Made by a program: the position numbers and the translations under genes. A stretch of 31,227 nt of DNA from the NCBI GenBank assembly GCA_020348445.1, contig CP070751.1:4288527-4319753 (forward strand), written 5' to 3'. Source of the stretch: Thermoplasmata archaeon (GTDB lineage Archaea > Thermoplasmatota > Thermoplasmata > GCA-020350865). Within the stretch, counting starts at the first letter, position 1. Each line of letters starts with the position of its first letter. The notes under the pieces were generated by a model. It did no database searches, was not told the origin of the DNA, and saw only the letters and a list, made by a program, of their open reading frames with translations. Of the stretch, positions 1 to 31,227 are shown piece by piece.

Positions 1-3000
1 GATCAGTTGCACCTGCTTCGAATGTTAGTGACGAACCCTCATCCCCAGATGGTGTAATAGCCAATGTTATAGTTGGGGCAACATTGTTGACCACAACATC
101 GGCTGTGATAATTGTTGTTTTTCCATCATCATCTGTAACCGTCAACGTGATCGTATAAACTCCATTATCGCCATAGGTATGCTGGACAGTGTCAGTAACT
201 GTGTATGGATATGTACCCCATGGGCTCTGAGGAGGATCTGGACTTACGCCATTATTGTAGTAGGTTGTGGTAGTCGCAGTGGTTCCATCTCCCCAATCCC
301 ATGTAAAAGTGAGATCGTCGCTGCCAGGATCTGTGGCAATGGAGCTGAAGGTTATTGGTGATCCTTCAATACCCGAAGGTGCTGTTATTGAATTTACAGA
401 GGGGGCAGCGTTGTTTACTGTAATAGTGGTTGTGTAGGTTGATATTCCGTTATCGTCATCGGTTGCTGTCAGTGTGATGGTATAGAAACCGTTGTCTCCG
501 TAAGTGTGGCTCATGGTGTCTGTAACTGAAAATGGGTGGGCTCCCCATGGACTCTTGATTTCATTTGGAACAGGATCGTAATCAGGCTCGGGGCTTAAGC
601 CATTGTTATAATATTTGGTCACATTATCTGATGTTCCATCGCCCCAGTTCCAAGTGAATGTGAGGTCGTCGCTGCCAGGATCTTCAGTAGAGAATGTGAA
701 AGCCATTGATGAGCCCTCATCTGCTGTGAATGGTCCAAATGGTGCGGGCGTTGGAGCAACATTCTGTACAGTCACCTGCATTGTGTCTGTATCAAAAAGC
801 TCCCCCGCAGAATAATTTTCAACGATCTCTGATATTTTTTTATATATCTCCTCTAAATATGAAGCATCAGGCGCTGGGAAGTACTTACCGATTGTTATGT
901 TAGCTATATCTTTAAGAAGTCGTTCTTCATTTGAGTCAGATGTCATGGCTAATCCGATGGTAAATATTTTTATCCCTCTGCCTGCCGCAATATGTGCCTC
1001 TCTTATACAATAGTTATTATCCACAGGGTCGTTGTTTTGTGCATCTGTAAGAAGAATAATAACCGGAATGTTATTGATGGGATCTCCGTAATTCCTATGT
1101 TCCTCATTTGAAAGATTGAGCCCTGTGGAAATCCCTGTACCCCCCATGTTATCGATGTAACCGAGGTTGTTCTTAATTCTTGCATAATCCATACTTAAGT
1201 GCTCATCATAAGGCCCAGGTGGCATGAGATCTGCTTCAGTATCAAAATCTACCACACAAGCCCTATCATCTGGAGTCAGCTTGTCTACATAATATTTTGC
1301 AGCCTCTATTCTTAAGTTAATGGGATCGTTCCAATCCATACTCCCAGAGCTGTCCATTACCAAAACGCAATCCTGGTCATCTTTTCTAACATCCCCGGTT
1401 TCCCATCGAGATGTTACAGTTAAGGTGACAGTGTAAATCCCATCATCACCAAAGACATGGATAGGAGTTGGCCCAGTTGCATCGACATCGTTGGTATAGT
1501 TACCATCTCCATTCGAATCTACATCTGAATCGAAGTCCCACTCGTAGGTAAGTTCGCTTTCCAAGCCGTATTTCTCAGAATTTAATGGATAGCCCGCCAT
1601 CCATCCCCTGTTACCGCCAACGGCATAGATGCAGTTGCCAACTACACCGGAGCCGAACTCCTGTCTAATATCCAACATGGGAGTGATTGTTGTCCAAGTG
1701 TCAGATTCGGGGTCGTACATCTCGGTTGTGTTCATTGCTAAATCACCACCAGACGATCCTCCAAATACGTATATCTTCCCTCCGAGAGTCTCGGCGCACA
1801 AAGCCCATCGATATGTCAGTGAAGGTGTTTTTTCTGTCCATGTATCGGTTTCGGGATCGTACACCTCTATTGGACAAGTCGCTCCCCATGTACGTCCTCC
1901 GATGGCGTAGATTTTTCCATCCAGACTTGTTGCAGCAAGATAACCTCTTGCAGTGGGTAAATCACTTGTCTGAGACCAGGTGTCTGTGGTTGTGTTGTAC
2001 TGATAGACGATGTTGCACCATGTGCAGTTGAGGTAGGTGCTGATGCCACCGATCGTGTAAATACAATCATCCACAACAGCTATTCCATATGCTGCCATTG
2101 CTATGGGCATGGGGGCCTTCTCAGTCCATGAATTCGTGGCTGGGTCGAACACATAAGTTGTATTGCGAGTACTGTAGCCTCCGTCCCCTCCGATTGCGTA
2201 GATCTTACCATTCACAGTAGCTGCACCGATTAAGGTTCTTTTTTGGGGAAGGCTTGGCAGATCAGACCAGGAGTCGATGGCTGGAGTGTACTTTTGAAAG
2301 ACATCAGATATTCCAGTTCCCATGTCGCCGGGGCCGCCACCGACGTAATAGAGCTCGTTGTTTAGAACTGCTGAGCCGCCTCCTGACCTAGGTGATGGTA
2401 TGTTGGCTCTGGGTACCCAACCTCCGGCCCCACTGTTGGGATCGTAGCTTCCTGTGCCGTCGAATTGCACTACATCCCCTTCGTTTACGGTTTGGTCGGG
2501 GCCTGCGTCGGCAACTGGAGGCTGGATTTGGGTTGGTGTGCCGATGGCGTAGAGTTTACAATCCCAAGATCCAAAATAAATTGTGCCGTCTGTGCCGATC
2601 GCAGGTGAAGAGTATATCCAATCACCAGCCGTGAAGTTCCATTTTTGAGTGCCATCTGAATTGATTGCATATAGTTTATCGTCATAAGAGCCCACATAAA
2701 TGGTGCCATCGGACCCGATTGCTGGTGACGACATCACGTTGTATCCGGTAGTGAAATTCCATTTTTGAGTGCCATCTGGGTTGATTGCATATAGTCTCTC
2801 ATCATCAGATCCAACATAAATAGTGCCGTCGGAGCCAATAGCAGGTGATGAACGAACATATCCTCCAGTAGTAAAATTCCATTTTTGAGTGCCATTTGGA
2901 TTGATTGCATATAGTTTATTATCATAAGAGCCCACATAAATAGTGCCATCGGAACCGATTGCTGGTGATGACTGCCCATAGATGGTAGTCGTGAAACTCC

Positions 3001-5035
3001 ATTTTTCAGTGCCATCAGGATTGATTGCATAAAGTTTAATGCCAGAGCTAATATAAACCGTACCATCATAGCCGATTGCAGGTGATGAAATTATCCTCCG
3101 ACTTCCAGTTGAGAAATCCCATTTCTTACTGCCATCTGGATTGAGAGCGTATAATTTTTTATCCCAGGAGCCGATATAGATTGTGCCATCGGACCCGATT
3201 GCTGGTGATGACGTCACAATGTCACCAGTCGTGTAACTCCAATTATGAGGTCCATCAGGGTTAATTGCATACAGTTTATTGTCGTAAGAGCCAATATAAA
3301 TCGTACCGTCGGAACCGATCGCTGGTGATGAAGGTACATAACCACCAGTCGTGAAACTCCACTTTTCAATGCCGTCTGGATTAATTGCATATAGTTTATC
3401 GTCATAAGAGCCGACATAAATCGTACCGTCGGAATCGATCGCGGGTGATGAAGTTACATTGCCACCGGTTGTGAAACTCCATTTCAACTTACCAGGATTT
3501 GCGCTCGTATCATAGGGATTAAGACCTGTATGATTGAGATTATGTCGGAACATCGGCCAAGGTATCGGGTTCACAGTGATATCCACATATCCAGATGCGT
3601 CATTATATCCAGTTTTACCTGCGTGTGCAGTTATTCTGCAAATTGCCTGAGTCGTGGCAGTAGGTGCATTGAATATACTCTCGAATTTGCCGTTGCTGTC
3701 CGTGATTCCGCTTTGCGGGCTGAACAATCCCCCGTTATCTGATGCTAAGTTTACAGCCGCACCTTGGATTGGGTTTGTGCCATCGGTAACATGGACTGTG
3801 ATTTGAGATTGGGCGGCGGAGTTGAGTTCTGTGAAATGGGAGGTGACCTTAATCTCAAGATTTTGACTTGGATTTCCAATGGCATACAATTTACCATCAT
3901 AACATCCAATATAGATCGTACCGTCCGAACCTATTGCTGGTGATGAGCGAATTCCATCACCTGTTATGAAATTCCATTTCTCTGAGCCATCTGGACTGAT
4001 TGCATACAATCTATTTGTATCATACCCGACATAGATTGTACCATCAGAACCGATTGCAGGTGATGAATACCAAAGACGTTTTTCTGCAATCGTGAAACTC
4101 CATTTCTCTGTGCCGTCCGGGTTGAGTGCATAAAGATGTCTATCGTCAGAGCCAAAATAAATCGTGCCGTCTGAACCGATTGCAGGTGATGAATTGACAT
4201 CATCATTAGTTATGAAATCCCATTTTTTCGTACCATCTGGATTGATTGCATACAGTCTATGGTCGTCAGACCCAACATAAATTGTGCCGTCTGGACCGAT
4301 TGCAGGAGATGAGGCAGATAAACTGTCTATAGCAGTGAAACTCCATTTCATGGTGCCATCTGGATTAATCGCATACAATTTATGGTCGTAAGAACCAATA
4401 TAAATCGTACCATCAGAGCCTATTGCAGGTGATGTTCTCAAAGCTCCACCTGTTGTGAACCTCCATTTCTCGATTCCATTGGAGTTAATTGCATATAGAT
4501 TACGGTCAAAAGAACCGATATAAATCGTACCATCAGAGCCTATTGCAGGTGATGAATTCACTTCCCAATCGGTCGTAAAACTCCATTTTTTTGTACCGTC
4601 GGGGTTGATGGCATACAGATTATTATCTTTAGACCCGAAATAGATTGTTCCTTCAGAGCCAATTGCAGGTGATGAATCCACATGACCTCCGGTAATAAAA
4701 TTCCATTCTTCAGTACCATCTGGGTTGATGGCATACAGTTTATTATCACGGGAACCTACATAGATAGTCCCATCGGAGCCGATTGCAGGTGAGGAGCGCA
4801 CATTATCACCAGTCGTGAAGCTCCATTTCAATTGGCCAATATTTCCGCTTGTATCATATTGGCTAAGACCTGTATGTTTGGGATTCCCTCGAAACATCGG
4901 CCACGGCGAATCAGCAAGCCCACCTCCACCACCACTCGAACTTGAATCCGGTTCCCCAACATCTTGAGTAATCGGTGCAGAAACAGAAGCCACCATAACC
5001 ACACACAGAATTATACTTTCAATCTTGGAATTCAT
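1..5035 (-). CDS. Giant secreted/surface protein, 3' end outside window (>1678 aa): signal peptide, 8 PQQ-like repeats, Ig-like domain, 8 PQQ-like repeats, PKD with inserted Kelch and VWA domains, further PKD domains
   Basis: ATG at 5035 preceded by GGGAGAGG; translation begins MNSKIESIILCVVMVASVSAP. The same frame at positions 2-61 reads AITPSGDEGSSLTFEAGATD (PKD-like). No stop-terminated ORF from 5035 appears in the track, consistent with an open frame to the window edge. Motifs: WPMFR...HTG, SSPAIGSDGTIYVGS, Kelch GG/W pattern, VMDSSGS (MIDAS), WDWGDG. Confidence 0.92.
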   Translation of the reverse strand, partial: MNSKIESIILCVVMVASVSAPITQDVGEPDSSSSGGGGGLADSPWPMFRGNPKHTGLSQYDTSGNIGQLKWSFTTGDNVRSSPAIGSDGTIYVGSRDNKLYAINPDGTEEWNFITGGHVDSSPAIGSEGTIYFGSKDNNLYAINPDGTKKWSFTTDWEVNSSPAIGSDGTIYIGSFDRNLYAINSNGIEKWRFTTGGALRTSPAIGSDGTIYIGSYDHKLYAINPDGTMKWSFTAIDSLSASSPAIGPDGTIYVGSDDHRLYAINPDGTKKWDFITNDDVNSSPAIGSDGTIYFGSDDRHLYALNPDGTEKWSFTIAEKRLWYSSPAIGSDGTIYVGYDTNRLYAISPDGSEKWNFITGDGIRSSPAIGSDGTIYIGCYDGKLYAIGNPSQNLEIKVTSHFTELNSAAQSQITVHVTDGTNPIQGAAVNLASDNGGLFSPQSGITDSNGKFESIFNAPTATTQAICRITAHAGKTGYNDASGYVDITVNPIPWPMFRHNLNHTGLNPYDTSANPGKLKWSFTTGGNVTSSPAIDSDGTIYVGSYDDKLYAINPDGIEKWSFTTGGYVPSSPAIGSDGTIYIGSYDNKLYAINPDGPHNWSYTTGDIVTSSPAIGSDGTIYIGSWDKKLYALNPDGSKKWDFSTGSRRIISSPAIGYDGTVYISSGIKLYAINPDGTEKWSFTTTIYGQSSPAIGSDGTIYVGSYDNKLYAINPNGTQKWNFTTGGYVRSSPAIGSDGTIYVGSDDERLYAINPDGTQKWNFTTGYNVMSSPAIGSDGTIYVGSYDDKLYAINSDGTQKWNFTAGDWIYSSPAIGTDGTIYFGSWDCKLYAIGTPTQIQPPVADAGPDQTVNEGDVVQFDGTGSYDPNSGAGGWVPRANIPSPRSGGGSAVLNNELYYVGGGPGDMGTGISDVFQKYTPAIDSWSDLPSLPQKRTLIGAATVNGKIYAIGGDGGYSTRNTTYVFDPATNSWTEKAPMPIAMAAYGIAVVDDCIYTIGGISTYLNCTWCNIVYQYNTTTDTWSQTSDLPTARGYLAATSLDGKIYAIGGRTWGATCPIEVYDPETDTWTEKTPSLTYRWALCAETLGGKIYVFGGSSGGDLAMNTTEMYDPESDTWTTITPMLDIRQEFGSGVVGNCIYAVGGNRGWMAGYPLNSEKYGLESELTYEWDFDSDVDSNGDGNYTNDVDATGPTPIHVFGDDGIYTVTLTVTSRWETGDVRKDDQDCVLVMDSSGSMDWNDPINLRIEAAKYYVDKLTPDDRACVVDFDTEADLMPPGPYDEHLSMDYARIKNNLGYIDNMGGTGISTGLNLSNEEHRNYGDPINNIPVIILLTDAQNNDPVDNNYCIREAHIAAGRGIKIFTIGLAMTSDSNEERLLKDIANITIGKYFPAPDASYLEEIYKKISEIVENYSAGELFDTDTMQVTVQNVAPTPAPFGPFTADEGSSMAFTFSTEDPGSDDLTFTWNWGDGTSDNVTKYYNNGLSPEPDYDPVPNEIKSPWGAHPFSVTDTMSHTYGDNGFYTITLTATDDDNGISTYTTTITVNNAAPSVNSITAPSGIEGSPITFSSIATDPGSDDLTFTWDWGDGTTATTTTYYNNGVSPDPPQSPWGTYPYTVTDTVQHTYGDNGVYTITLTVTDDDGKTTIITADVVVNNVAPTITLAITPSGDEGSSLTFEAGATD
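1568..2425 (-). repeat. Six Kelch repeats (coding) within the giant surface protein
   Basis: Six units with hydrophobic-hydrophobic-GG ...Y(D/N)P...W pattern: YVGG, AIGG, TIGG, AIGG, VFGG, AVGG. Confidence 0.85.
2550..3565 (-). repeat. Second PQQ-like propeller module: WPMFR leader plus 8 x ~120-nt coding repeats
   Basis: Ser-Pro-Ala codon block (gc[at/g]ggtga on + strand) recurs near 3441, 3321, 3201, 3078, 2961, 2841, 2721 and 2601. Confidence 0.88.
3880..4905 (-). repeat. First PQQ-like propeller module: WPMFR leader plus 8 x ~120-nt coding repeats
   Basis: The same block recurs near 4786, 4666, 4546, 4426, 4301, 4181, 4055 and 3935; unit resembles WxFxTxxxVxSSPAIGSDGTIYVGSxDxKLYAINPDG. 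Confidence 0.88.
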
Positions 5036-23986: not shown

Positions 23987-24096
23987 TTAAATTTCTAATT
24001 CTGCTCTATCCCCTTATGTATGTTGTAATATTAGTGAGGGTATATAAAATCTACTAGGTACATACCATCCAAACACCATAAATCGGGATTTAATCC

Positions 24097-25140: not shown

Positions 25141-28100
25141 GTGGAGAACGATATCGTGGAACAGAACAACAAGGTAGCCCAAACAGAGGAGATGAAGGCC
25201 TATTTCGACATGTTGGAAACCATGGCCAACGAATGCTACACAATCAGCGAGAAGGCAAGGAGCCAGGGGAAGGATCCCGAGAAGACGGTGGAGATACCCA
25301 AGGCCGAAGACCTGGCTATGAGGGTGGAAAAGCTCCTCGATTTTGAGGGGATAGCCCCCAGAATCAGGGCTCTTTGTGCCAAGTACAACAGGGAGGAAGC
25401 ATCCATAAGAATAGCAAAGGAAATAGCCAAAAGCCAAAATATGAGCCAGGAAAAGGCCCTGGATTTGGCGATCCGTGTTGGTTTGGCGGTGCTCACCGAA
25501 GGCATCCTCGTGGCTCCTTTGGAGGGAGTGGCGGATGTGAAGATTCGAGGTGGCTCTTCACAGTATGTGACTGTTTATTATGCAGGTCCCATCCGCTCGG
25601 CAGGTGGAACAGGACAGGCCATGAGTGTTCTCATCGCTGATGTTGTGAGAAGGGAGCTTGGTATTGGCAGGTACAAGCCCACAAAATCGGAAATCGAGCG
25701 TTATAAGGAGGAGATGGCGCTTTACAAAACTTCACAGTACACCCCGACGAAAGAGGAAATCGAGCTCATAGTGAAAAACTGCCCAATTTGCATAGATGGA
25801 GAGGGTACCGAAGAGGATGAGGTGGCAGGCAACCGTGACTTAAAGCGTGTGGCAACGAACAGGGTAAGAGGCGGTGCATGTCTTGTTCTAGCCGAGGGAC
25901 TTTGTCTTAAGGCCCATAAGATCCAGAAGCATGTTAAGAAACTCAAAATCGACGGCTGGGAGTTCATCGACGAGCTCTCAGGAGTAAAGGTCAGATCAGG
26001 TGAGAACAATGAGAACCAGCGTAAAAAGATCGAGGCCAACTACAAGTTCATCAAGGATATCGTGGCTGGAAGGCCAGTTTTGTGTCACCCCAGCAGGATA
26101 GGCGGCTTTCGGCTCAGGTACGGAAGGAGCAGGGCTGGAGGACTTGCAGCAATTTCCATTCACCCTGCGGCCATGACCATATTGGATGATTTCATCTCAG
26201 TGGGGACACAGATTAAGATAGAAAGGCCAGGGAAGGCAGGGGCAGTTACTCCCTGCGATTCCATCGAGGGGCCCATTGTGCTTTTGGATTCAGGGGAACT
26301 CATCGAGGTAAATGACGTCGAAACAGCGTTGAATGTCAGGGGAAACGTGAGTAAGATAATAGATTTAGGAGAGGTGCTGATTCCCTTTGGCGAATTCATA
26401 GAAAACAACCACGTTCTCGTCCCTGGGGCTTACTCCAGGGAATGGTGGCTGGCTGAGTTTGCGGAAAGTGGAGGAAATGTAAAGGACCTTCCCGAAAGGC
26501 TCGAAGCCAAGGGGGCCTTCGAACTCTCAGAAAAGTATTCGATTCCCCTTCATCCGGATTTCAACCTCCTGTGGCACGATATCTCCCCAGATGATGTGTG
26601 GTTCCTGAGGGAATTCATACTGAAAAACGGTACGCACGATAATGGGAACTTGGTCTTACCGTTGAATGACAGGCTCAAGGAAGTGCTGGAGAGCCTAGGG
26701 TCACTTCATACTCAGGAAGGCCAGAATCTTATCTTAAATAGATATGTCTATCCAATAATCAGATGTCTGGGTTTGAGAACTAATGGAAAAAAAATCGAGG
26801 ATAGGGCGAACATAACAGGCCGAACCAACGAGCCTCCTTCCGAGGTCCTCCTTTTGGTCTCAAGACTCGCAGGTGTTCTGATCAGAGCCCGGGCCCCCAC
26901 CAGAATCGGTGCGAGAATGGCAAGGCCCGAAAAGGCCAAGGAGCGCAAGATGAGGCCTCCTCCCCATGTGCTGTTTCCACTGGGGGAAAATGGAGGCCCG
27001 CAGAGGCTGGTCTCAGAGGCATTAAAGAAGAGGAACATCACTATAGAGGTTGGATTAAGGCGTTGCCAGAAATGCAAAAAAAGGAACTTTCTTTCCATAT
27101 GTGAGTGTGGTGGTCACACAGTTGCCGTGGACTCTCCAGTAACTCAAAAAATCGATTTTGCCAGGGAGTTAAAAAAGGCGCAGGCAGCCCTTGGCGAGGG
27201 CAACAACCTTGAGATCAAGGGTGTTAGGGGCATGATATCAAAAAACAAGACACCCGAGCCCCTGGAGAAGGGAATATTGAGGTCAAAACATGAAGTCTTT
27301 GTTTTCAAGGACGGCACCATACGTTTTGATATGACGGATGTACCTGTTACGCATGTGAGACTGTCCGAGATCGGGCTGGATGTTACGAAGGCAAGGGAAT
27401 TGGGCTATTTTAAGGACTTCAAAGGTGAGACTCTTGAGAATGAAGAGCAGTTGATAGAGTTAAAGCCTCAGGACATCATTCCATCTATCAAATGCGGGGA
27501 ATATCTTGTTAGGGTATCTAGATTCTTGGACGACCTTTTAACGAAATTCTACGATCAGACGCCCTTTTACAACGCGTATGTTCCAGAGGATCTTATAGGG
27601 CATCTCGTGGTTGGTCTGGCACCCCACACCTCAGGGGGGGTTCTCGCCCGTATAATAGGCTACACAAAGGCCCAGGTGGGATATGCACATCCGTTCTTTC
27701 ATGCAGCTAAGAGGCGGAACTGTGATGGTGACGAGGACTGCGTGATGCTGCTTTTGGATGGTCTTATCGACTTTTCCCGTGCATATCTTCCTGAGTCCAG
27801 GGGCGGCATGATGGATGCCCCCTTGGTTCTGACCACGAGGCTGGATCCGGATGAGATCGATAAAGAGGCGCACAACCTGGATGTATTGTTCAAGTATCCC
27901 CTCGAGTTCTACGAGGCCACCATGCGTTACTCCAACCCAAAGGATGTGGAGGGCCTCATGGATCTTGTGGGTGGGAGAATAGGAAACAAGAACCAGTACG
28001 AGGGCTTTGGGTTCACCCACGACACAAAGAACATAGGTGAAGGGCCACCCCAGTCAGCGTACAAGACCCTCAAGACCATGATGGACAAGATGGAGGGGCA

Positions 28101-28473
28101 GCTTTCCCTTGCCGCGAAGATCCGGGCCGTGGACACTGATGATGTTGTAGCCAGGGTGATCAACAATCACTTTTTGCCTGATATGATTGGTAATCTGAGG
28201 AGATTCTCAACACAGCAGGTGAGATGTACGAAGTGCAACAGGAAATTCAGGCGCCTGCCTTTATCTGGCAAGTGCACAGGTTGCGGTGGAAATCTTACTC
28301 TCACTGTGCATGAGGGCAGTGTCAAGAAGTACCTCAAGGTGAGCAAGGAGATAGTGGAGAGCTACGATATTTCCAATTACACGAGGCAGAGGATACGGTT
28401 GATGGACGGGGCCATATGCTCTCTTTTTGAGAACGAGAAGGTAAAGGAGTGCACTTTGGAGGATTTTTTATAG
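25141..28473 (+). CDS. polC: DNA polymerase D large subunit (DP2), intein-free
   Basis: AVRxGLAxLTEGILVAPLEG, YYAGPIRSAGGT, GFRLRYGRSR, HAAKRRNCDGDED catalytic motif, two C-terminal Zn sites and terminal TLEDFL. The start could be a downstream ATG (25189). Confidence 0.98.
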   Translation: MENDIVEQNNKVAQTEEMKAYFDMLETMANECYTISEKARSQGKDPEKTVEIPKAEDLAMRVEKLLDFEGIAPRIRALCAKYNREEASIRIAKEIAKSQNMSQEKALDLAIRVGLAVLTEGILVAPLEGVADVKIRGGSSQYVTVYYAGPIRSAGGTGQAMSVLIADVVRRELGIGRYKPTKSEIERYKEEMALYKTSQYTPTKEEIELIVKNCPICIDGEGTEEDEVAGNRDLKRVATNRVRGGACLVLAEGLCLKAHKIQKHVKKLKIDGWEFIDELSGVKVRSGENNENQRKKIEANYKFIKDIVAGRPVLCHPSRIGGFRLRYGRSRAGGLAAISIHPAAMTILDDFISVGTQIKIERPGKAGAVTPCDSIEGPIVLLDSGELIEVNDVETALNVRGNVSKIIDLGEVLIPFGEFIENNHVLVPGAYSREWWLAEFAESGGNVKDLPERLEAKGAFELSEKYSIPLHPDFNLLWHDISPDDVWFLREFILKNGTHDNGNLVLPLNDRLKEVLESLGSLHTQEGQNLILNRYVYPIIRCLGLRTNGKKIEDRANITGRTNEPPSEVLLLVSRLAGVLIRARAPTRIGARMARPEKAKERKMRPPPHVLFPLGENGGPQRLVSEALKKRNITIEVGLRRCQKCKKRNFLSICECGGHTVAVDSPVTQKIDFARELKKAQAALGEGNNLEIKGVRGMISKNKTPEPLEKGILRSKHEVFVFKDGTIRFDMTDVPVTHVRLSEIGLDVTKARELGYFKDFKGETLENEEQLIELKPQDIIPSIKCGEYLVRVSRFLDDLLTKFYDQTPFYNAYVPEDLIGHLVVGLAPHTSGGVLARIIGYTKAQVGYAHPFFHAAKRRNCDGDEDCVMLLLDGLIDFSRAYLPESRGGMMDAPLVLTTRLDPDEIDKEAHNLDVLFKYPLEFYEATMRYSNPKDVEGLMDLVGGRIGNKNQYEGFGFTHDTKNIGEGPPQSAYKTLKTMMDKMEGQLSLAAKIRAVDTDDVVARVINNHFLPDMIGNLRRFSTQQVRCTKCNRKFRRLPLSGKCTGCGGNLTLTVHEGSVKKYLKVSKEIVESYDISNYTRQRIRLMDGAICSLFENEKVKECTLEDFL
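28381..28473 (+). repeat. polC 3' end, first copy of a 93-nt direct repeat (second copy 29809-29901)
   Basis: 79/93 nt identical by manual codon alignment, including an identical 20-nt core ATGGACGGGGCCATATGCTC (28402-28421 / 29830-29849). Confidence 0.95.
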
Positions 28474-28519
28474 AGAAACTCACCCTCCCTTTGATTTTTA
28501 ATGATACAATTTCAGTTTT

Positions 28520-29692
28520 TTAAATGTTTTTATAACCTTTTGACAGCCATGCTCTAAAAACACCGTCTACCAGCTCATATCTTCCTCTTTCTATTCGATT
28601 TAAGGTCAGGGAGTCGCGCAGTAATTTTATGTCTTTGCCGAGTTCGTTTACAGAAAGATCCATTGCATATGCGATCTCAGAAACCCTCATACTTTCCTTT
28701 GTTGAAAGAGCTTTTAGGATCCGCTGCTGTTTATTAGAAAAGCTGTGCTCGAATCTCATCTCAAATTCGGAGTCGAATTCTGCGAGCATTTCGTTGAAAC
28801 CTAAAATAACATCTTTGTTTTTGATCGTTTTCTTCTTGTTCATAATCGCATTGCGATAGCAGATATCTCCAAGCTTCTGGAAATAAAATGGAATTCCCGA
28901 GGTCAGTTCGCATATGCTGTTTATTGCTTCTTCCTCGATTTTCATGTTAAACTCTGCAAGTCTTTTTGATATGAATTTTTTAATATCCGTAACCTCAAGA
29001 GGACCGATATTGATTCTCGTGGCCATAAGGTAAAGTGGTGAGTTTGGCTGAAGAAAAACTTTTTGAAGAATGGAAAGGGATGAGCCCGAGAAAATGTATC
29101 TCACCGCCTTAGCTCTATCTGTTTTGCTTTTCAGGAGGTTGAAAAGATAACCGTCGAAATCGGCAGTTCTTTGAAATTCATCGAAAATAACCACAATCTT
29201 GACGTTCTTCTCCATGGCAAATTCCGTTATAAAATCGAATGTTTTTCTCGCCAGTTCATGTTCATCTATTTGCCTCTCTCTAAAGGATATGTATCCCTCC
29301 ACCACATTCTGCACAGAGCCCCCGATTTTTTCTATTCTATGCATCACATTAATGATACTATCGGTAAGGCTCTTTTTAAAAACCTCCACAAATCCTTTAG
29401 CCTTATGCCTTCTTTCGTAGGATGATAATAAGTTCTCGGTCACGAGTTTGAGCAGCTCAAGATATGTTGTGACCTCCATACAATTGATGTTTATTACAAG
29501 AATATCCTTGCGCTTAACTAAGCGCATTTCGACGTTTTTCAAAAGAGAGGATTTTCCTGTTCTCCTTGGGCCAACAATCAAATAATTTTGAGATAGGGAA
29601 CTTATGCCCCTTAAGACCTCACTCAGGACATCATCCCTTCCTATGAAGTAGGGGGGCTCCACTTCTCCGCCAACCTGAAACGGTGCTGACAT
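28520..29692 (-). CDS. Archaeal P-loop ATPase (ATPase_2/STAND-like) with C-terminal winged helix
   Basis: FIGR, Walker A GPRRTGKSS, Walker B VVIFDEFQ, FSGSS, GIPFY, and wHTH-like RVSEIAYAM...GRYELVDGVFRAWL. Confidence 0.9.
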   Translation of the reverse strand: MSAPFQVGGEVEPPYFIGRDDVLSEVLRGISSLSQNYLIVGPRRTGKSSLLKNVEMRLVKRKDILVININCMEVTTYLELLKLVTENLLSSYERRHKAKGFVEVFKKSLTDSIINVMHRIEKIGGSVQNVVEGYISFRERQIDEHELARKTFDFITEFAMEKNVKIVVIFDEFQRTADFDGYLFNLLKSKTDRAKAVRYIFSGSSLSILQKVFLQPNSPLYLMATRINIGPLEVTDIKKFISKRLAEFNMKIEEEAINSICELTSGIPFYFQKLGDICYRNAIMNKKKTIKNKDVILGFNEMLAEFDSEFEMRFEHSFSNKQQRILKALSTKESMRVSEIAYAMDLSVNELGKDIKLLRDSLTLNRIERGRYELVDGVFRAWLSKGYKNI

Positions 29693-29713
29693 GAACCTAA
29701 AATAAACTTTTTA

Positions 29714-29775
29714 GTTTATAAACTTTTTCTCTTAGTTTTTTTGTAAGAGAATTCGTTTATAAACCTTTTTTCTTA
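29714..29775 (-). promoter_or_regulatory. Two tandem BRE-TATA-like 21-nt repeats upstream of the ATPase
   Basis: gtttataaactttttctctta (29714-29734) and gtttataaaccttttttctta (29755-29775), 19/21 identical; on the minus strand each reads purine run + TTTATAAA. The proximal TATA is about 30 nt from ATG 29692. Confidence 0.7.
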
Positions 29776-29808
29776 TAAATTCCTAGGGACGGGGATGTTT
29801 ACGATCAA

Positions 29809-29901
29809 ACCAAACAGAGGACACGCCTTATGGACGGGGCCATATGCTCCCTTTTCGAGAACGAGAAGGTGAGGGAGTGCACTCTGGAGGATTTTCTTTA
29901 G
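29809..29901 (+). pseudogene. Orphan polC 3' fragment (TKQRTRLMDGAICSLFENEKVRECTLEDFL*)
   Basis: 27/30 aa identical to the DP2 C-terminus, own TAG stop, followed by a T-tract. Confidence 0.85.
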
Positions 29902-29981
29902 ATGTTTTTTTTCATTTCGATATTTATTTAAGCCTGTAACTTGATTCGGGCCACAGATCAACTGATTTGGGGGAGGTAATC

Positions 29982-31227
29982 ATGGATAAGAAAAGAATGA
30001 GAATATCATCTATTTTTTTTGTGTGGATACTAATATGTGCGGTTTTTATGGGAATGTTGAGTGTAGTAGAGAATGTGGAGGCATCGCCTAATGAGGTGAG
30101 GATAACTTGGGATGATGCTGATCAGCGTGATCCAGATATTTGGGGGGATATAATTGTGTGGACTGACTTTAAAACAGGCAATGGTGATATTTACATGTAT
30201 GATTTAAACAAGAAAACGAAAACAAGGGTCACCTCAAATTTATTTATCCAAGATTTTCCTGCGATATATGGCGATAGAATTGTTTGGGCAGATGATAGAA
30301 ATGCAAACTTAGACATCTACCTATATAACATAAGCGAAGGGACAGAGATGCAAATAACTAATAATAGTAGTAGCCAGAACTACCCCTCAATATATTATGA
30401 TAAGATCGTTTGGGAGGACGAGAGAAACGGTAATTGTGATATATATTTATATAATCTGAGCAATAGAACAGAGATCCCGATTTGTACTGCCATGTCTGAT
30501 CAGAGATTACCAGATATCTACGGAAATACAATTGTATGGATGGATTTTAGAAATAGCAGTTCCAATTGGGACGTTTATATGTACGATTTGATCTCAAATA
30601 CAGAAAAAAGAATAACTAATAAAACATTATTACAAATGGCGCCTGCTATCTATGATGATAAGATTGTATGGATGGACACAAGAGACCTTCACTGGGCTGT
30701 CTATATGTATGAATTGAATGATGGCACGATTAGGAAGATTAGTACGAACTCATCAGAAAGTTGGTTTCCAAAAATATATGAGGACAAGATTGTATGGTAT
30801 GATGAGAGAAACCTCAATTGGGACATCTACTTATTTGATTTGAGCACAAATACTGAGACGCAGATCACTACAGATACAAAAGCACAGCAGTTCCCAGCTA
30901 TCCACGATGACAAGATTGTATGGCAAGACGAAAGAAACGGTAACCCTGATATCTATTTGACATATATAGATCAAGATAATGATGGAGTTTATGGTTGGAA
31001 TGATGAGTTTCCTAACAATCCATATGAGTACGTAGACACAGATTCCGATGGCATGGGTGACAATCTAGATCCAGATGCAGATAACGACGGTTGGGGCGAT
31101 GAAACAGAGGTTGTATGTGGAAGCAATCCATTAGATAATTCCTCAGTTCCGATAGATTGGGACAATGATCTCAATCCCGATGTTCTTGACACAGATGATG
31201 ATAACGATGGTTATCCAGACATAAATG
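29982..31227 (+). CDS. Secreted beta-propeller protein (Methanosarcina surface-protein-type repeats) plus TSP3-like repeats; 3' end outside window
   Basis: GGAGGT RBS; signal peptide MDKKRMRISSIFFVWILICAVFMGML; seven QxxPxIxxDxIVWxDxRNxNxDIYxYxL-like repeats; then DQDNDG/DTDSDG/DADNDG repeats; no in-frame stop seen before the edge. Confidence 0.9.
   Translation, partial: MDKKRMRISSIFFVWILICAVFMGMLSVVENVEASPNEVRITWDDADQRDPDIWGDIIVWTDFKTGNGDIYMYDLNKKTKTRVTSNLFIQDFPAIYGDRIVWADDRNANLDIYLYNISEGTEMQITNNSSSQNYPSIYYDKIVWEDERNGNCDIYLYNLSNRTEIPICTAMSDQRLPDIYGNTIVWMDFRNSSSNWDVYMYDLISNTEKRITNKTLLQMAPAIYDDKIVWMDTRDLHWAVYMYELNDGTIRKISTNSSESWFPKIYEDKIVWYDERNLNWDIYLFDLSTNTETQITTDTKAQQFPAIHDDKIVWQDERNGNPDIYLTYIDQDNDGVYGWNDEFPNNPYEYVDTDSDGMGDNLDPDADNDGWGDETEVVCGSNPLDNSSVPIDWDNDLNPDVLDTDDDNDGYPDIN

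What the first reader, a model, noticed from the sequence alone, without database searches (positions are those of the whole stretch)
28381..29901. ATPase islet inserted at the polC 3' end, with gene-end replacement
The last 31 codons of polC recur 1428 nt downstream: 14 nucleotide differences, with 8 codons changed synonymously and only 3 amino-acid changes (R/K, I/T, K/R). Both copies therefore appear to have evolved under coding constraint, i.e. as separate alleles rather than a decaying duplicate. At the 10 synonymous-codon differences the downstream copy has G/C at 8 and the in-frame copy at 3, suggesting the downstream copy is the displaced host end (with its T-tract) and the current end was supplied by incoming DNA. 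This is the signature of elements that integrate into and restore an essential gene, here the replicative polymerase rather than a tRNA. The only cargo is an ATPase-wHTH with its own promoter and no recombinase, so it was mobilised in trans, is a remnant, or arose by homology-facilitated recombination.
Basis: partly seen in the sequence, partly recalled or inferred. Interest (0 to 1): 0.72.

Follow-up and report, generated by a model that had tools for sequence, protein, structure and literature searches.

The report
Swapped gene end at archaeal polymerase
In an uncultured archaeon, a 1.4-kb piece of related DNA carrying one ATPase gene and a substitute end for the replicative polymerase gene was spliced into that gene; the original end sits just downstream as a relic, and this looks like ordinary enzyme-free recombination between relatives, not a dedicated mobile element.

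Summary
The last 31 codons of the PolD large-subunit gene ("polC") recur 1428 nt downstream with 14 differences (8 synonymous, 3 conservative codon changes).

In two genomes of the same genus, polC is followed directly by the orthologue of the beta-propeller gene that follows the downstream copy here. So the downstream copy is the displaced native end. The ATPase gene plus the present end are the insert.

The "integrative element" reading is not supported:
- No integrase lies in the islet or within about 10 kb, and the whole 5.16-Mb genome has only 1-2 tyrosine-recombinase hits.
- Displaced polC ends start at different positions: two layers here and three in a congener.
- One congener's cargo is a homologue of the gene natively next to polC in another lineage.
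- I verified the same scar, with empty sites in congeners, at two other genes of this genome (a prepilin peptidase gene and a HerA-like gene).

Best reading: integrase-free, homology-anchored recombination with DNA from related lineages. This resembles homology-facilitated illegitimate recombination and the C-terminal displacement seen at Rhs/CDI/T6SS loci, and it recurs at this locus.

Earlier unchecked notes of this scan report similar scars at purB, ilvA and a Tsr3-like gene in this same genome. Interest is moderate.

The parts
25141..28473 (+). polC: archaeal family-D DNA polymerase large subunit (DP2), 1110 aa, intact
   Evidence: Pfam PolC_DP2_N, PolC_DP2_central and PolC_DP2_cat at E 5e-109 to 6e-150, plus zf-DPOE. 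Orthologues are 88-94% identical in protein over the C-terminal 199 residues in the genus.
28387..28473 (+). Present (incoming) polC end: the last 28 codons plus stop, encoding the C-terminal PIP-like motif CTLEDFL
   Evidence: 87% identical to the displaced end, with 7 synonymous and 2 conservative codon differences. It resembles the P. abyssi DP2 cPIP peptide KKRVISLEEFFS, which binds PCNA and primase (PMC7101311); the resemblance is by eye.
28402..28421 (+). 20-nt stretch identical in both copies (ATGGACGGGGCCATATGCTC)
   Evidence: It is also identical in G003 polC, so it is simply the most conserved patch, not a demonstrated crossover core.
28474..28519 (.). 46-nt spacer between the polC stop and the ATPase stop (convergent genes)
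   Evidence: no other copy in the genome.
28520..29692 (-). Cargo: 390-aa P-loop ATPase (ATPase_2, PF01637) with a weak C-terminal winged-HTH
   Evidence: PF01637 at 51 bits against a cut-off of 33.2; HTH_20 at 22.5 bits, below its cut-off. GC is 39.6% against 49.9% for polC. No orthologue in the 5 other genomes of the order. Paralogues in this genome are 27% identical or less. Metagenome proteins are 70-80% identical. Only weak PADLOC hits.
29704..29735 (+). M: relic of the sequence that lies directly behind the polC stop in other lineages of the genus
   Evidence: Aligns with L048 6280-6330 and G002 L034 918-960. The 20-mer has only 3 near matches in the 5.16-Mb genome, two of them here.
29736..29776 (+). 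Second, very short displaced polC end (TTTTTTTGTAA = last codons plus stop) with its post-stop sequence M'
   Evidence: About 87% identical (by eye) to the G002 polC end plus 30 nt downstream. G002 has an analogous relic at about L034 10375-10425.
29714..29764 (.). 18-bp interrupted hairpin formed by M and M'. It contains two palindromic GTTTATAAAC boxes (TATA-like) 22-31 and 63-72 nt upstream of the ATPase start
   Evidence: Inverted repeat I2. Fold of -17.7/-18.6 kcal/mol, z -4.7/-5.3. A promoter role is inferred only.
29794..29814 (+). Degraded left part of the downstream copy
   Evidence: 13/21 identical to polC (P=5e-4 against chance; control blocks further left 7-11/30). 5 of 7 codons are changed, in a stretch invariant in all polC of the genus.
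29815..29901 (+). Displaced native polC end (last 28 codons plus stop), no longer part of a gene
   Evidence: Colinear with G003 (polC tail, spacer, PD40 gene) from 29815 onward. By eye it differs at about 3 of 66 positions (roughly 95% identity) from G003 polC downstream of the Met codon. The 7-nt CAGAGGA at 29815-29821 also occurs at 28387-28393.
29902..29981 (+). Native polC-PD40 intergenic region: T8 run (29905-29912) and box CGATATTTATTTAAGCCT (29918-29935)
   Evidence: The same box lies behind the polC stop in G003 and, with one mismatch, in G004. It is also at the third locus, L002.
29982..31226 (+). PD40/beta-propeller-repeat secreted protein gene (runs off the window), the ancestral downstream neighbour of polC
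   Evidence: PF07676. 60% identical without gaps to the gene that directly follows polC in G003.

Best explanation
The islet is a scar of integrase-free, homology-anchored recombination with DNA from a related archaeon.

The ancestral order was polC then the PD40 gene. Incoming DNA paired with the recipient's polC on its left side. It brought a complete, species-level-diverged polC end and the ATPase gene that lay behind polC in the donor. On its right side it was joined back into the recipient inside the recipient's own polC tail, at about -87 from the stop. That joint formed either at a short microhomology (CAGAGGA) or by pairing with an older, decayed polC-end fragment carried by the donor.

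Because the joint lies upstream of the recipient's stop codon, the native last 28 codons were kept as a non-coding relic in front of the PD40 gene. Only events that rebuild the essential polC tail (which carries a PIP-like PCNA/primase-binding motif) survive.

The process has happened repeatedly at this gene in the genus. G000 carries a second, 11-nt relic of a polC end plus its post-stop sequence. G002 carries three displaced ends separating three cargo blocks. It has also happened at other genes of this genome.

Shown: the repeat, the empty sites, the direction, the layering, the lack of a recombinase, and recurrence at other genes.
Inferred: the recombination pathway (one-ended homologous invasion plus end-joining or template switch) and the donor's gene order.
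For: - Empty sites in G003 and G004, and colinearity from window 29815 onward.
- The new end is a bona fide polC end: same protein sequence, mostly synonymous differences, and divergence equal to that between species.
- In G002 the present end and fragment 1 differ by 13 synonymous and 0 non-synonymous codons over the last 36 codons, so both evolved as coding sequence.
- Displaced ends start at different positions: about -11 and -87/-108 in G000; about -17, -150 and -186 in G002.
- The G002 island-1 cargo is a 1948-aa beta-helix/PKD protein. It is a full-length homologue (34% identity, same signal peptide, same spacing) of the gene natively adjacent to polC in metagenome contig L048, which has no polC-end fragment.
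- No integrase or transposase lies in any island or within about 10 kb, apart from a weak Tc3-type HTH (transposase-like) hit about 3.9 kb downstream of the displaced end. There are only 1-2 PF00589 hits in 5.16 Mb.
- The same scar, with empty sites in congeners, occurs at a prepilin peptidase gene (2.3-kb PMT glycosyltransferase insert) and at a HerA-like gene (7.7 kb of SBBP propeller genes).
- The ATPase is absent from the other genomes of the order and has no close paralogue here.
- A comparable mechanism has been proposed for T6SS/Rhs arrays (PMC5361080).
Against: - The donor arrangement (polC convergent with this ATPase) was not found.
- The left 21 nt of the downstream copy is weakly but significantly polC-like. 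A purely illegitimate joint does not predict this; it fits a donor that already carried flanking polC-end repeats, or an att arm.
- No recombination breakpoint is visible inside polC, because all congeners are about equally distant (73-77% nt).
- Genome-wide, truncated gene-end copies lie downstream of their gene only 15:9, which is not a significant bias.
- No reads were available to confirm the assembly.
Confidence: 0.6

Rival explanations
1. A homologous-recombination-driven cassette. The unit (new polC end, cargo, left part of an old polC end) moves between genomes because it is flanked by two polC-tail homologies. It could enter as a looped-out circle by a single crossover (Campbell type) or as linear DNA by a double crossover, in which the donor's old fragment pairs with the recipient's real tail.
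For: - The downstream copy is two-part: a decayed left arm (13/21 nt; 5 of 7 codons changed) and a well-kept right arm that is closest to G003 polC. This model predicts exactly that.
- Similarity between the copies ends at the stop codon.
- The fragment plus PD40 gene start also occurs at a third locus, 96% identical.
Against: - The first layer in G000 (polC-stop relic plus M') would need a circle of under 200 bp.
- The arms are only 83% identical over 109 nt, which is poor for homologous recombination.
- No circle or second instance of this cassette was found.
- The other scars (peptidase, HerA, G002 fragment 2) have sharp left edges with no decayed arm.
Confidence: 0.15
2. A remnant or satellite of a site-specific integrative element whose attP mimics the polC 3' end. 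It would cross over at the 20-nt identical core, with its integrase lost or supplied in trans.
For: - Direct repeats of a gene 3' end flank foreign cargo, and the gene is restored.
- A 20-nt identical core is present.
- The fragment's two-part structure fits an untranslated att arm plus a displaced host end.
- This is the classic pattern of prophages e14 and 21 at icd in E. coli (own knowledge).
Against: - No integrase lies in the islet, in the two fragment-bounded G002 islands, or nearby.
- There are only 1-2 PF00589 hits genome-wide.
- Fragment starts differ between events.
- The 20-nt core is merely the most conserved patch of polC; it is identical in G003 too.
- G002 cargo equals another lineage's native polC neighbour.
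- At least three different genes in this genome carry such scars, which would need several integrases.
- Nothing related was found in IMG/VR.
Confidence: 0.12
3. An in-situ event with no foreign polC end. A replication or repair error (template switching) duplicated the polC tail while inserting the ATPase gene, and the two copies then diverged in place.
For: Distances are star-like: the present end, the fragment and G003 are about equally far apart (10-11 differences in 84 nt). An old duplication just after the G000/G003 split therefore cannot be excluded from distances alone.
Against: - A neutrally decaying copy should have accumulated amino-acid changes evenly along its length. It has 2 in 29 codons on the right and 5 in 7 on the left.
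- By eye the fragment is closer to G003 polC than the working end is, over the 66 nt downstream of the Met codon (about 3 vs 6 differences).
- In G002 the copies differ by 13 synonymous and 0 non-synonymous changes.
- Most scars in this genome, including the three verified ones, have copies 8-18% diverged, although two unverified pairs are 87-97% identical.
Confidence: 0.08
4. An assembly artefact: a chimeric join or mis-placed repeat.
For: No reads were available. The genome is a single 5.16-Mb contig of an uncultured organism, with 82% estimated completeness and 3.8% contamination.
Against: - The copies differ by 17%, so they cannot have been collapsed or mis-joined as repeats.
- polC is intact.
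- Analogous structures exist in an independent assembly (G002).
- The flanks are colinear with G003 and G004.
Confidence: 0.03

Closest known systems
Homology-facilitated illegitimate recombination (HFIR) in transformable bacteria (Acinetobacter, Pseudomonas stutzeri, Streptococcus pneumoniae), as cited in PMC5361080
   Same: A conserved gene serves as a one-sided homologous anchor, foreign DNA is attached at the other side without homology or with microhomology, and no dedicated recombinase is needed.
   Different: This case is in an archaeon. The right-hand joint lies inside the anchor gene, so the native gene end is duplicated rather than deleted. The events are recurrent and stacked. Part of the right joint shows degraded homology.
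C-terminal displacement arrays of Rhs, CDI and T6SS effector loci, with orphan toxin ends and immunity genes (Kirchberger et al. 2017, PMC5361080, and references there)
   Same: A new 3' end plus linked cargo enters through homology with the conserved upstream part of the gene and pushes the old 3' end downstream. Successive events build a string of orphan ends.
   Different: The anchor is an essential housekeeping gene whose end is conserved, not a polymorphic toxin whose end is the variable payload. The cargo here is unrelated genes (ATPase, surface proteins, AbiE toxin-antitoxin).
Prophages and integrative elements that insert into a gene's 3' end and carry a substitute end (phage 21 and e14 in E. 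coli icd; tRNA-targeting archaeal and bacterial elements). Cited from own knowledge.
   Same: Direct repeats of the gene end flank the insert, the substitute end differs mostly at synonymous sites, and the gene stays functional.
   Different: There is no integrase, the insert is tiny (one gene), the crossover position varies between events, and the same pattern occurs at several unrelated genes in one genome that has almost no tyrosine recombinases.
Earlier notes of this scan on the same genome: scars at purB (e1-5722210), ilvA (e1-5775474) and a Tsr3-like gene (e1-5775877)
   Same: Cassettes without an integrase, bracketed by two diverged alleles of a gene end. One follow-up also concluded integrase-free recombination with a related lineage.
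   Different: Those are AI notes that I did not re-test. They concern other genes, some at 5' ends. The polC locus adds verified empty sites, stacked layers and a parallel in a second species.

Membership tests
Site-specific integrative element restoring its target gene | Direct repeats (attL/attR) of the target's 3' end flank the insert, and the gene is restored | tested here: met
   109-nt repeat, intact polC.
Site-specific integrative element restoring its target gene | An integrase or recombinase encoded in or next to the element | tested here: not met
   Islet cargo is one ATPase. G002 island cargo is a surface protein, DUF5678 and AbiE, with an MNT gene beyond the second fragment. There is none within about 10 kb. 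PF00589 gives 1-2 hits in the whole genome, both far away. Highly divergent SSV-type integrases could have been missed.
Site-specific integrative element restoring its target gene | The same crossover site in independent insertions | tested here: not met
   Displaced ends start at about -11 and -87/-108 in G000, and at about -17, -150 and -186 in G002.
Site-specific integrative element restoring its target gene | A free (viral, plasmid or circular) form carrying attP | tested here: inconclusive
   No relative of the polC tail or the ATPase in IMG/VR viral contigs. Reads and circles could not be examined.
Homology-anchored illegitimate recombination / gene-end displacement | The incoming end is a genuine allele of the anchor gene from a related lineage | tested here: met
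   The protein sequence is kept, differences are mainly synonymous, and divergence equals that between species.
Homology-anchored illegitimate recombination / gene-end displacement | An empty site in relatives, with the displaced end in the native context | tested here: met
   G003 and G004 have polC directly followed by the PD40 orthologue.
Homology-anchored illegitimate recombination / gene-end displacement | The cargo is what lies next to the anchor gene in a donor lineage | tested here: inconclusive
   Met for G002 island 1 against L048.
Homology-anchored illegitimate recombination / gene-end displacement | A non-homologous or microhomology joint on the far side | tested here: inconclusive
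   The 7-nt CAGAGGA is shared at the switch point, but the 21 nt to its left are 62% polC-like, P=5e-4. Other scars have sharp edges. The donor sequence is unknown.
Homology-anchored illegitimate recombination / gene-end displacement | Not tied to one target: the same scar at other conserved genes | tested here: met
   Prepilin peptidase with a PMT insert, and HerA with SBBP inserts, both with empty sites in congeners.
Archaeal PolD large subunit (DP2) | N-terminal, central and catalytic DP2 domains plus a C-terminal Zn finger | tested here: met
   PF03833, PF24844, PF24846 and PF22912.
ATPase_2 (PF01637) archaeal P-loop ATPase with wHTH | A Pfam match over the gathering score, with a Walker A motif | tested here: met
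   51 bits against 33.2; GPRRTGKS is present. The C-terminal HTH is sub-threshold only (HTH_20, 22.5 bits against 27).

The most novel reading that the evidence does not exclude
The 3' end of polC, and other gene ends in this genus of sediment Thermoplasmata, is a dedicated gene-capture site. Displaced gene-end fragments and the hairpin modules built on the stop-codon region (M/M') would act as portable recombination arms or folded recombination sites. Cassettes of one to a few genes would then be stacked behind an essential gene without any classical integrase. This would be an integron- or Rhs-like capture system anchored on a replicative polymerase, possibly linked to the genus-specific 'fold-back repeats that copy gene ends' reported in earlier notes of this scan.
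Probability: 0.15. Interest if true: 0.75.

Novelty: new member of a known kind. Interest (0 to 1): 0.42.

Why it matters
It documents, with empty sites and stacked relics, that an archaeon repeatedly gained accessory genes by recombining with diverged relatives at the end of its essential replicative polymerase gene. Each time, the tail carrying the PIP-like PCNA/primase-binding motif was swapped for another allele. Together with the other scars in this 5.16-Mb genome (congeners are 2.3-3.7 Mb), it points to integrase-free, homology-anchored capture as a frequent route of gene gain in an uncultured archaeal lineage. Such events have rarely been described in archaea. It also warns that "gene end duplicated around cargo" is not by itself evidence of an integrative element.

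Tried and rejected
- **Compositional evidence for direction.** GC3 of the two ends is 0.66 vs 0.69, both within the polC range. Rejected; synteny decides instead.
- **Recombination breakpoint inside polC.** Sliding-window identity to G001, G002, L048, G003 and G004 is flat, and all congeners are about equally distant. Uninformative.
- **Phylogeny of the tails.** 84-108 nt give star-like distances, so there is no resolution.
- **polC-end duplicates at polC loci of other genera and of metagenome contigs.** None found in 83 loci.
- **Viral contigs.** Nothing for the polC tail or the ATPase.
- **M as a dispersed repeat family in G000.** Only the two local copies exist, and there is no sequence match in earlier notes.
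- **Genome-wide orientation bias of truncated gene-end copies.** 15 downstream vs 9 upstream, not significant, and many hits are paralogue noise.
- **Known RNA families and sigma-70 promoter / intrinsic-terminator consensus scans in 28300-30100.** Nothing meaningful.
- **Known defence systems for the ATPase.** Only weak PADLOC hits.
- **Hemerythrin/PIN scar.** Congener contigs were too short or differed downstream, so no empty site could be shown.
- **HFIR primary papers.** PMC122324 and PMC122325 are not held.
Full report
**What is there**

The window is G000:C1:4288527-4319753 of a single-contig 5.16-Mb archaeal genome. The genome has 41.8% GC and no mcrA. Earlier notes of this scan call it an uncultured Thermoplasmata archaeon. 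A 56%-identical ATPase relative carries the source name "Thermoplasmata archaeon". I did not verify the taxon.

The ORF at 25141-28473 is the large subunit DP2 of the family-D replicative polymerase, usually annotated polC in archaea. Its last 109 nt (28366-28474) recur at 29794-29902 with 83% identity, BLAST E 6e-27.

- 14 differences over the last 31 codons
- 8 synonymous codon changes
- 3 conservative replacements
- a 20-nt identical run

Between the copies lies one gene on the minus strand (28520-29692). It encodes a 390-aa ATPase_2/PF01637 P-loop protein with a sub-threshold C-terminal HTH. A PD40 beta-propeller-repeat secreted protein gene starts at 29982.

**Direction: empty sites**

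The order holds six species genomes including this one: four same-genus genomes (G001-G004) and one from another family (G005).

In G003 and G004, the polC stop is followed after about 110 and 220 nt by the orthologue of the PD40 gene. The intervening spacer holds the same box, CGATATTTATTTAAGCC (one mismatch in G004), that follows the downstream copy here at 29918-29935. BLAST aligns G000 colinearly with G003 (polC tail, spacer, PD40 gene) from window 29815 onward. The two PD40 proteins are 60% identical over 413 residues without a gap.

So polC then PD40 is the ancestral order. Positions 29815-29901 are the displaced native end. The 1428-nt insert consists of a substitute polC end plus the ATPase gene.

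The ATPase looks foreign:
- It has no orthologue in the five other genomes of the order.
- Its paralogues in G000 are 27% identical or less.
- Its GC is 39.6% against 49.9% for polC.
- Metagenome proteins 70-80% identical to it exist.

GC3 is 0.66 vs 0.69 for the two ends.

**The locus is layered, and a congener has the same thing**

G002 is a different species of the genus, from an independent assembly. Its locus reads as follows:
1. polC
2. a 1948-aa beta-helix/PKD surface protein
3. a 150-nt polC-end fragment
4. DUF5678 plus an AbiEii/AbiEi pair
5. a 186-nt polC-end fragment
6. an MNT nucleotidyltransferase
7. a roughly 17-nt polC-end relic with its post-stop sequence
8. a second beta-helix gene

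The present G002 end and fragment 1 differ at 13 codons, all synonymous, over 36 codons. Both therefore evolved as working polC ends.

In G000 the stretch between the ATPase start and the downstream copy is not anonymous. Positions 29704-29735 (M) and 29736-29776 (TTTTTTTGTAA plus M') are homologous to the sequence that directly follows the polC stop in G002 and in metagenome contig L048. The 20-mer has only three near matches in the whole genome, two of them here. G000 therefore carries at least two displaced polC ends.

M and M' together fold into an 18-bp hairpin (z about -5). The hairpin holds two palindromic TATA-like GTTTATAAAC boxes. A promoter role for the ATPase gene is only inferred.

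No polC-end duplicate was seen at 83 polC loci of other genera or metagenome contigs.

**Why not an integrative element**

- No recombinase is encoded in the islet, in the G002 islands, or within about 10 kb. The nearest transposase-like hit is a weak Tc3-type HTH about 3.9 kb downstream of the displaced end.
- PF00589 finds only 1-2 fragments in 5.16 Mb, neither anywhere near this locus.
- The displaced ends begin at five different positions.
- The 20-nt "core" is simply the most conserved patch of the gene; it is identical in G003 too.
- IMG/VR holds no relative of the polC tail or the ATPase.
- The G002 island-1 cargo is a full-length homologue of the gene that natively follows polC in L048, which has no polC-end fragment in 10 kb. 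The two share 34% identity, the same signal peptide, and a 148 vs 159 nt spacer. The "insert" therefore looks like a piece of a relative's chromosome, not an element.

**The same scar at other genes**

I ran a self-comparison of the genome for truncated gene-3'-end copies. It found several further cases with coding-type conservation and integrase-free cargo.

| Gene whose end is duplicated | Insert | Codon differences between copies (syn / non-syn) | Empty site in congeners |
|---|---|---|---|
| Prepilin peptidase (A24) | 2.3 kb, PMT_2 glycosyltransferase | 9 / 5 | G001, G002, G003: peptidase gene directly followed by the gene that in G000 lies behind the fragment |
| HerA-like ATPase | 7.7 kb, SBBP propeller genes | 3 / 1 | G004 |
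| DUF438/hemerythrin/PAS gene | PIN toxin | 4 / 2 | could not be shown |

The genome-wide orientation bias (15 downstream vs 9 upstream) is not significant.

Earlier notes of this scan describe similar scars at purB, ilvA and a Tsr3-like gene in this genome. I did not re-test those.

**Mechanism**

The best fit is integrase-free, homology-anchored recombination with DNA from a related lineage. The left side is homologous pairing in polC. The right side joins inside the recipient's polC tail.

One natural route is repair of a break in the polC tail:
1. The left end invades diverged donor DNA.
2. It copies the donor's polC end and whatever lies behind it.
3. It is rejoined to the right end, which still carries the native tail.

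This leaves exactly the observed duplication. Selection for an intact tail filters the outcomes. That tail ends in CTLEDFL, which resembles the DP2 C-terminal PIP peptide KKRVISLEEFFS that binds PCNA and primase (PMC7101311).

The known analogues are HFIR in bacteria and the displacement arrays of Rhs/CDI/T6SS loci (PMC5361080).

One feature needs more than a blunt illegitimate joint. The 21 nt left of the switch point are weakly polC-like (13/21, P=5e-4) but heavily changed at the protein level (5 of 7 codons changed, against 2 of 29 to the right). This fits a donor that already carried an old, decayed polC fragment, which paired with the recipient's tail. In that case the cassette would spread by homologous recombination on both sides. 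It also fits an att arm. I therefore keep an HR-cassette model (0.15) and an integrase-in-trans or remnant model (0.12) as rivals. An in-situ duplication (0.08) and an assembly artefact (0.03) are less likely.

**Limits**

- No reads were available.
- The 100 nt left of the third copy are masked.
- Congeners are too diverged (73-77% nt in polC) to locate a left breakpoint.

**Verdict**

The integrative-element reading is not supported. This is a further, well-documented instance of a known kind of recombination scar. It is notable for its target (the replicative polymerase), its stacking, and its frequency in this archaeal genome.

Noticed in passing
G000:C1:3063479-3064034 (L002 about 1219-1613; L037 5480-6035): A third copy of the displaced polC end (at least 84 nt) is 96% identical to the downstream copy over 113 nt, counting the spacer that follows the stop. 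It is followed by the same spacer and a PD40 paralogue whose coding region is only about 75% identical. On its left, after 100 masked bases, lies the 3' fragment of an FtsX-like permease gene whose closest match is 1.28 Mb away (81.5% identical, at 1784613-1784796). This looks like a patchwork of displaced gene ends.
   Followed up: partly
window 23990-24090 (minus strand); L034 970-1040 and 10660-10740; L048 6340-6420; L110 (reverse complement) about 2960-3040: The giant beta-helix/PKD surface-protein genes of the genus share a conserved upstream motif. It reads roughly TTGGTGTA, then ATGGTAAT, then GGTAATTACC, then TTTATATA, just before the start codon. It is probably a family-specific regulator site plus TATA box.
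   Followed up: no
G000:C1:264440-267724, 2677313-2686346, 26661-29512, 5073501-5079293, 4633220-4653902: Further gene 3' ends are duplicated around integrase-free cargo. The genes and cargo are: prepilin peptidase with a PMT glycosyltransferase; HerA with SBBP propeller genes; hemerythrin/PAS with a PIN toxin; a Ras-family GTPase with an S8 peptidase and a NosD-like protein; and an FG-GAP protein with a 19-kb block. The first two were verified with empty sites in congeners.
   Followed up: partly
window 29830-29901: The displaced end keeps an ATG-initiated 23-codon frame (MDGAICSLFENEKVRECTLEDFL) that holds the PIP-like motif. The third copy keeps it too, with one change. There is no evidence that it is expressed.
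   Followed up: no
L036 5187-5990 (G000:C1:4321186-4321989): A 267-aa ORF has weak HTH_32/HTH_21/Tc3-transposase N-terminal matches and is interrupted by a masked block. It lies about 3.9 kb downstream of the displaced end. It is the only transposase-like sequence near the locus.
   Followed up: no
whole genome G000 compared with G001-G004: G000 is 5.16 Mb against 2.3-3.7 Mb for its congeners. Its estimated completeness is only 82% although it is a single contig. It has tandem Ras-family GTPase genes (5073501-5075465) and many giant surface-protein genes.
   Followed up: no
L048 6280-6315; L034 924-958: In other lineages of the genus, the polC stop codon is the first part of a hairpin whose 3' arm is a flipped copy of the last bases of the gene (L048: 13 bp, z -5.0). 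This resembles the 'fold-back modules copying gene ends' that earlier notes of this scan describe behind tRNA genes of this genus. It may equally be a plain terminator.
   Followed up: partly
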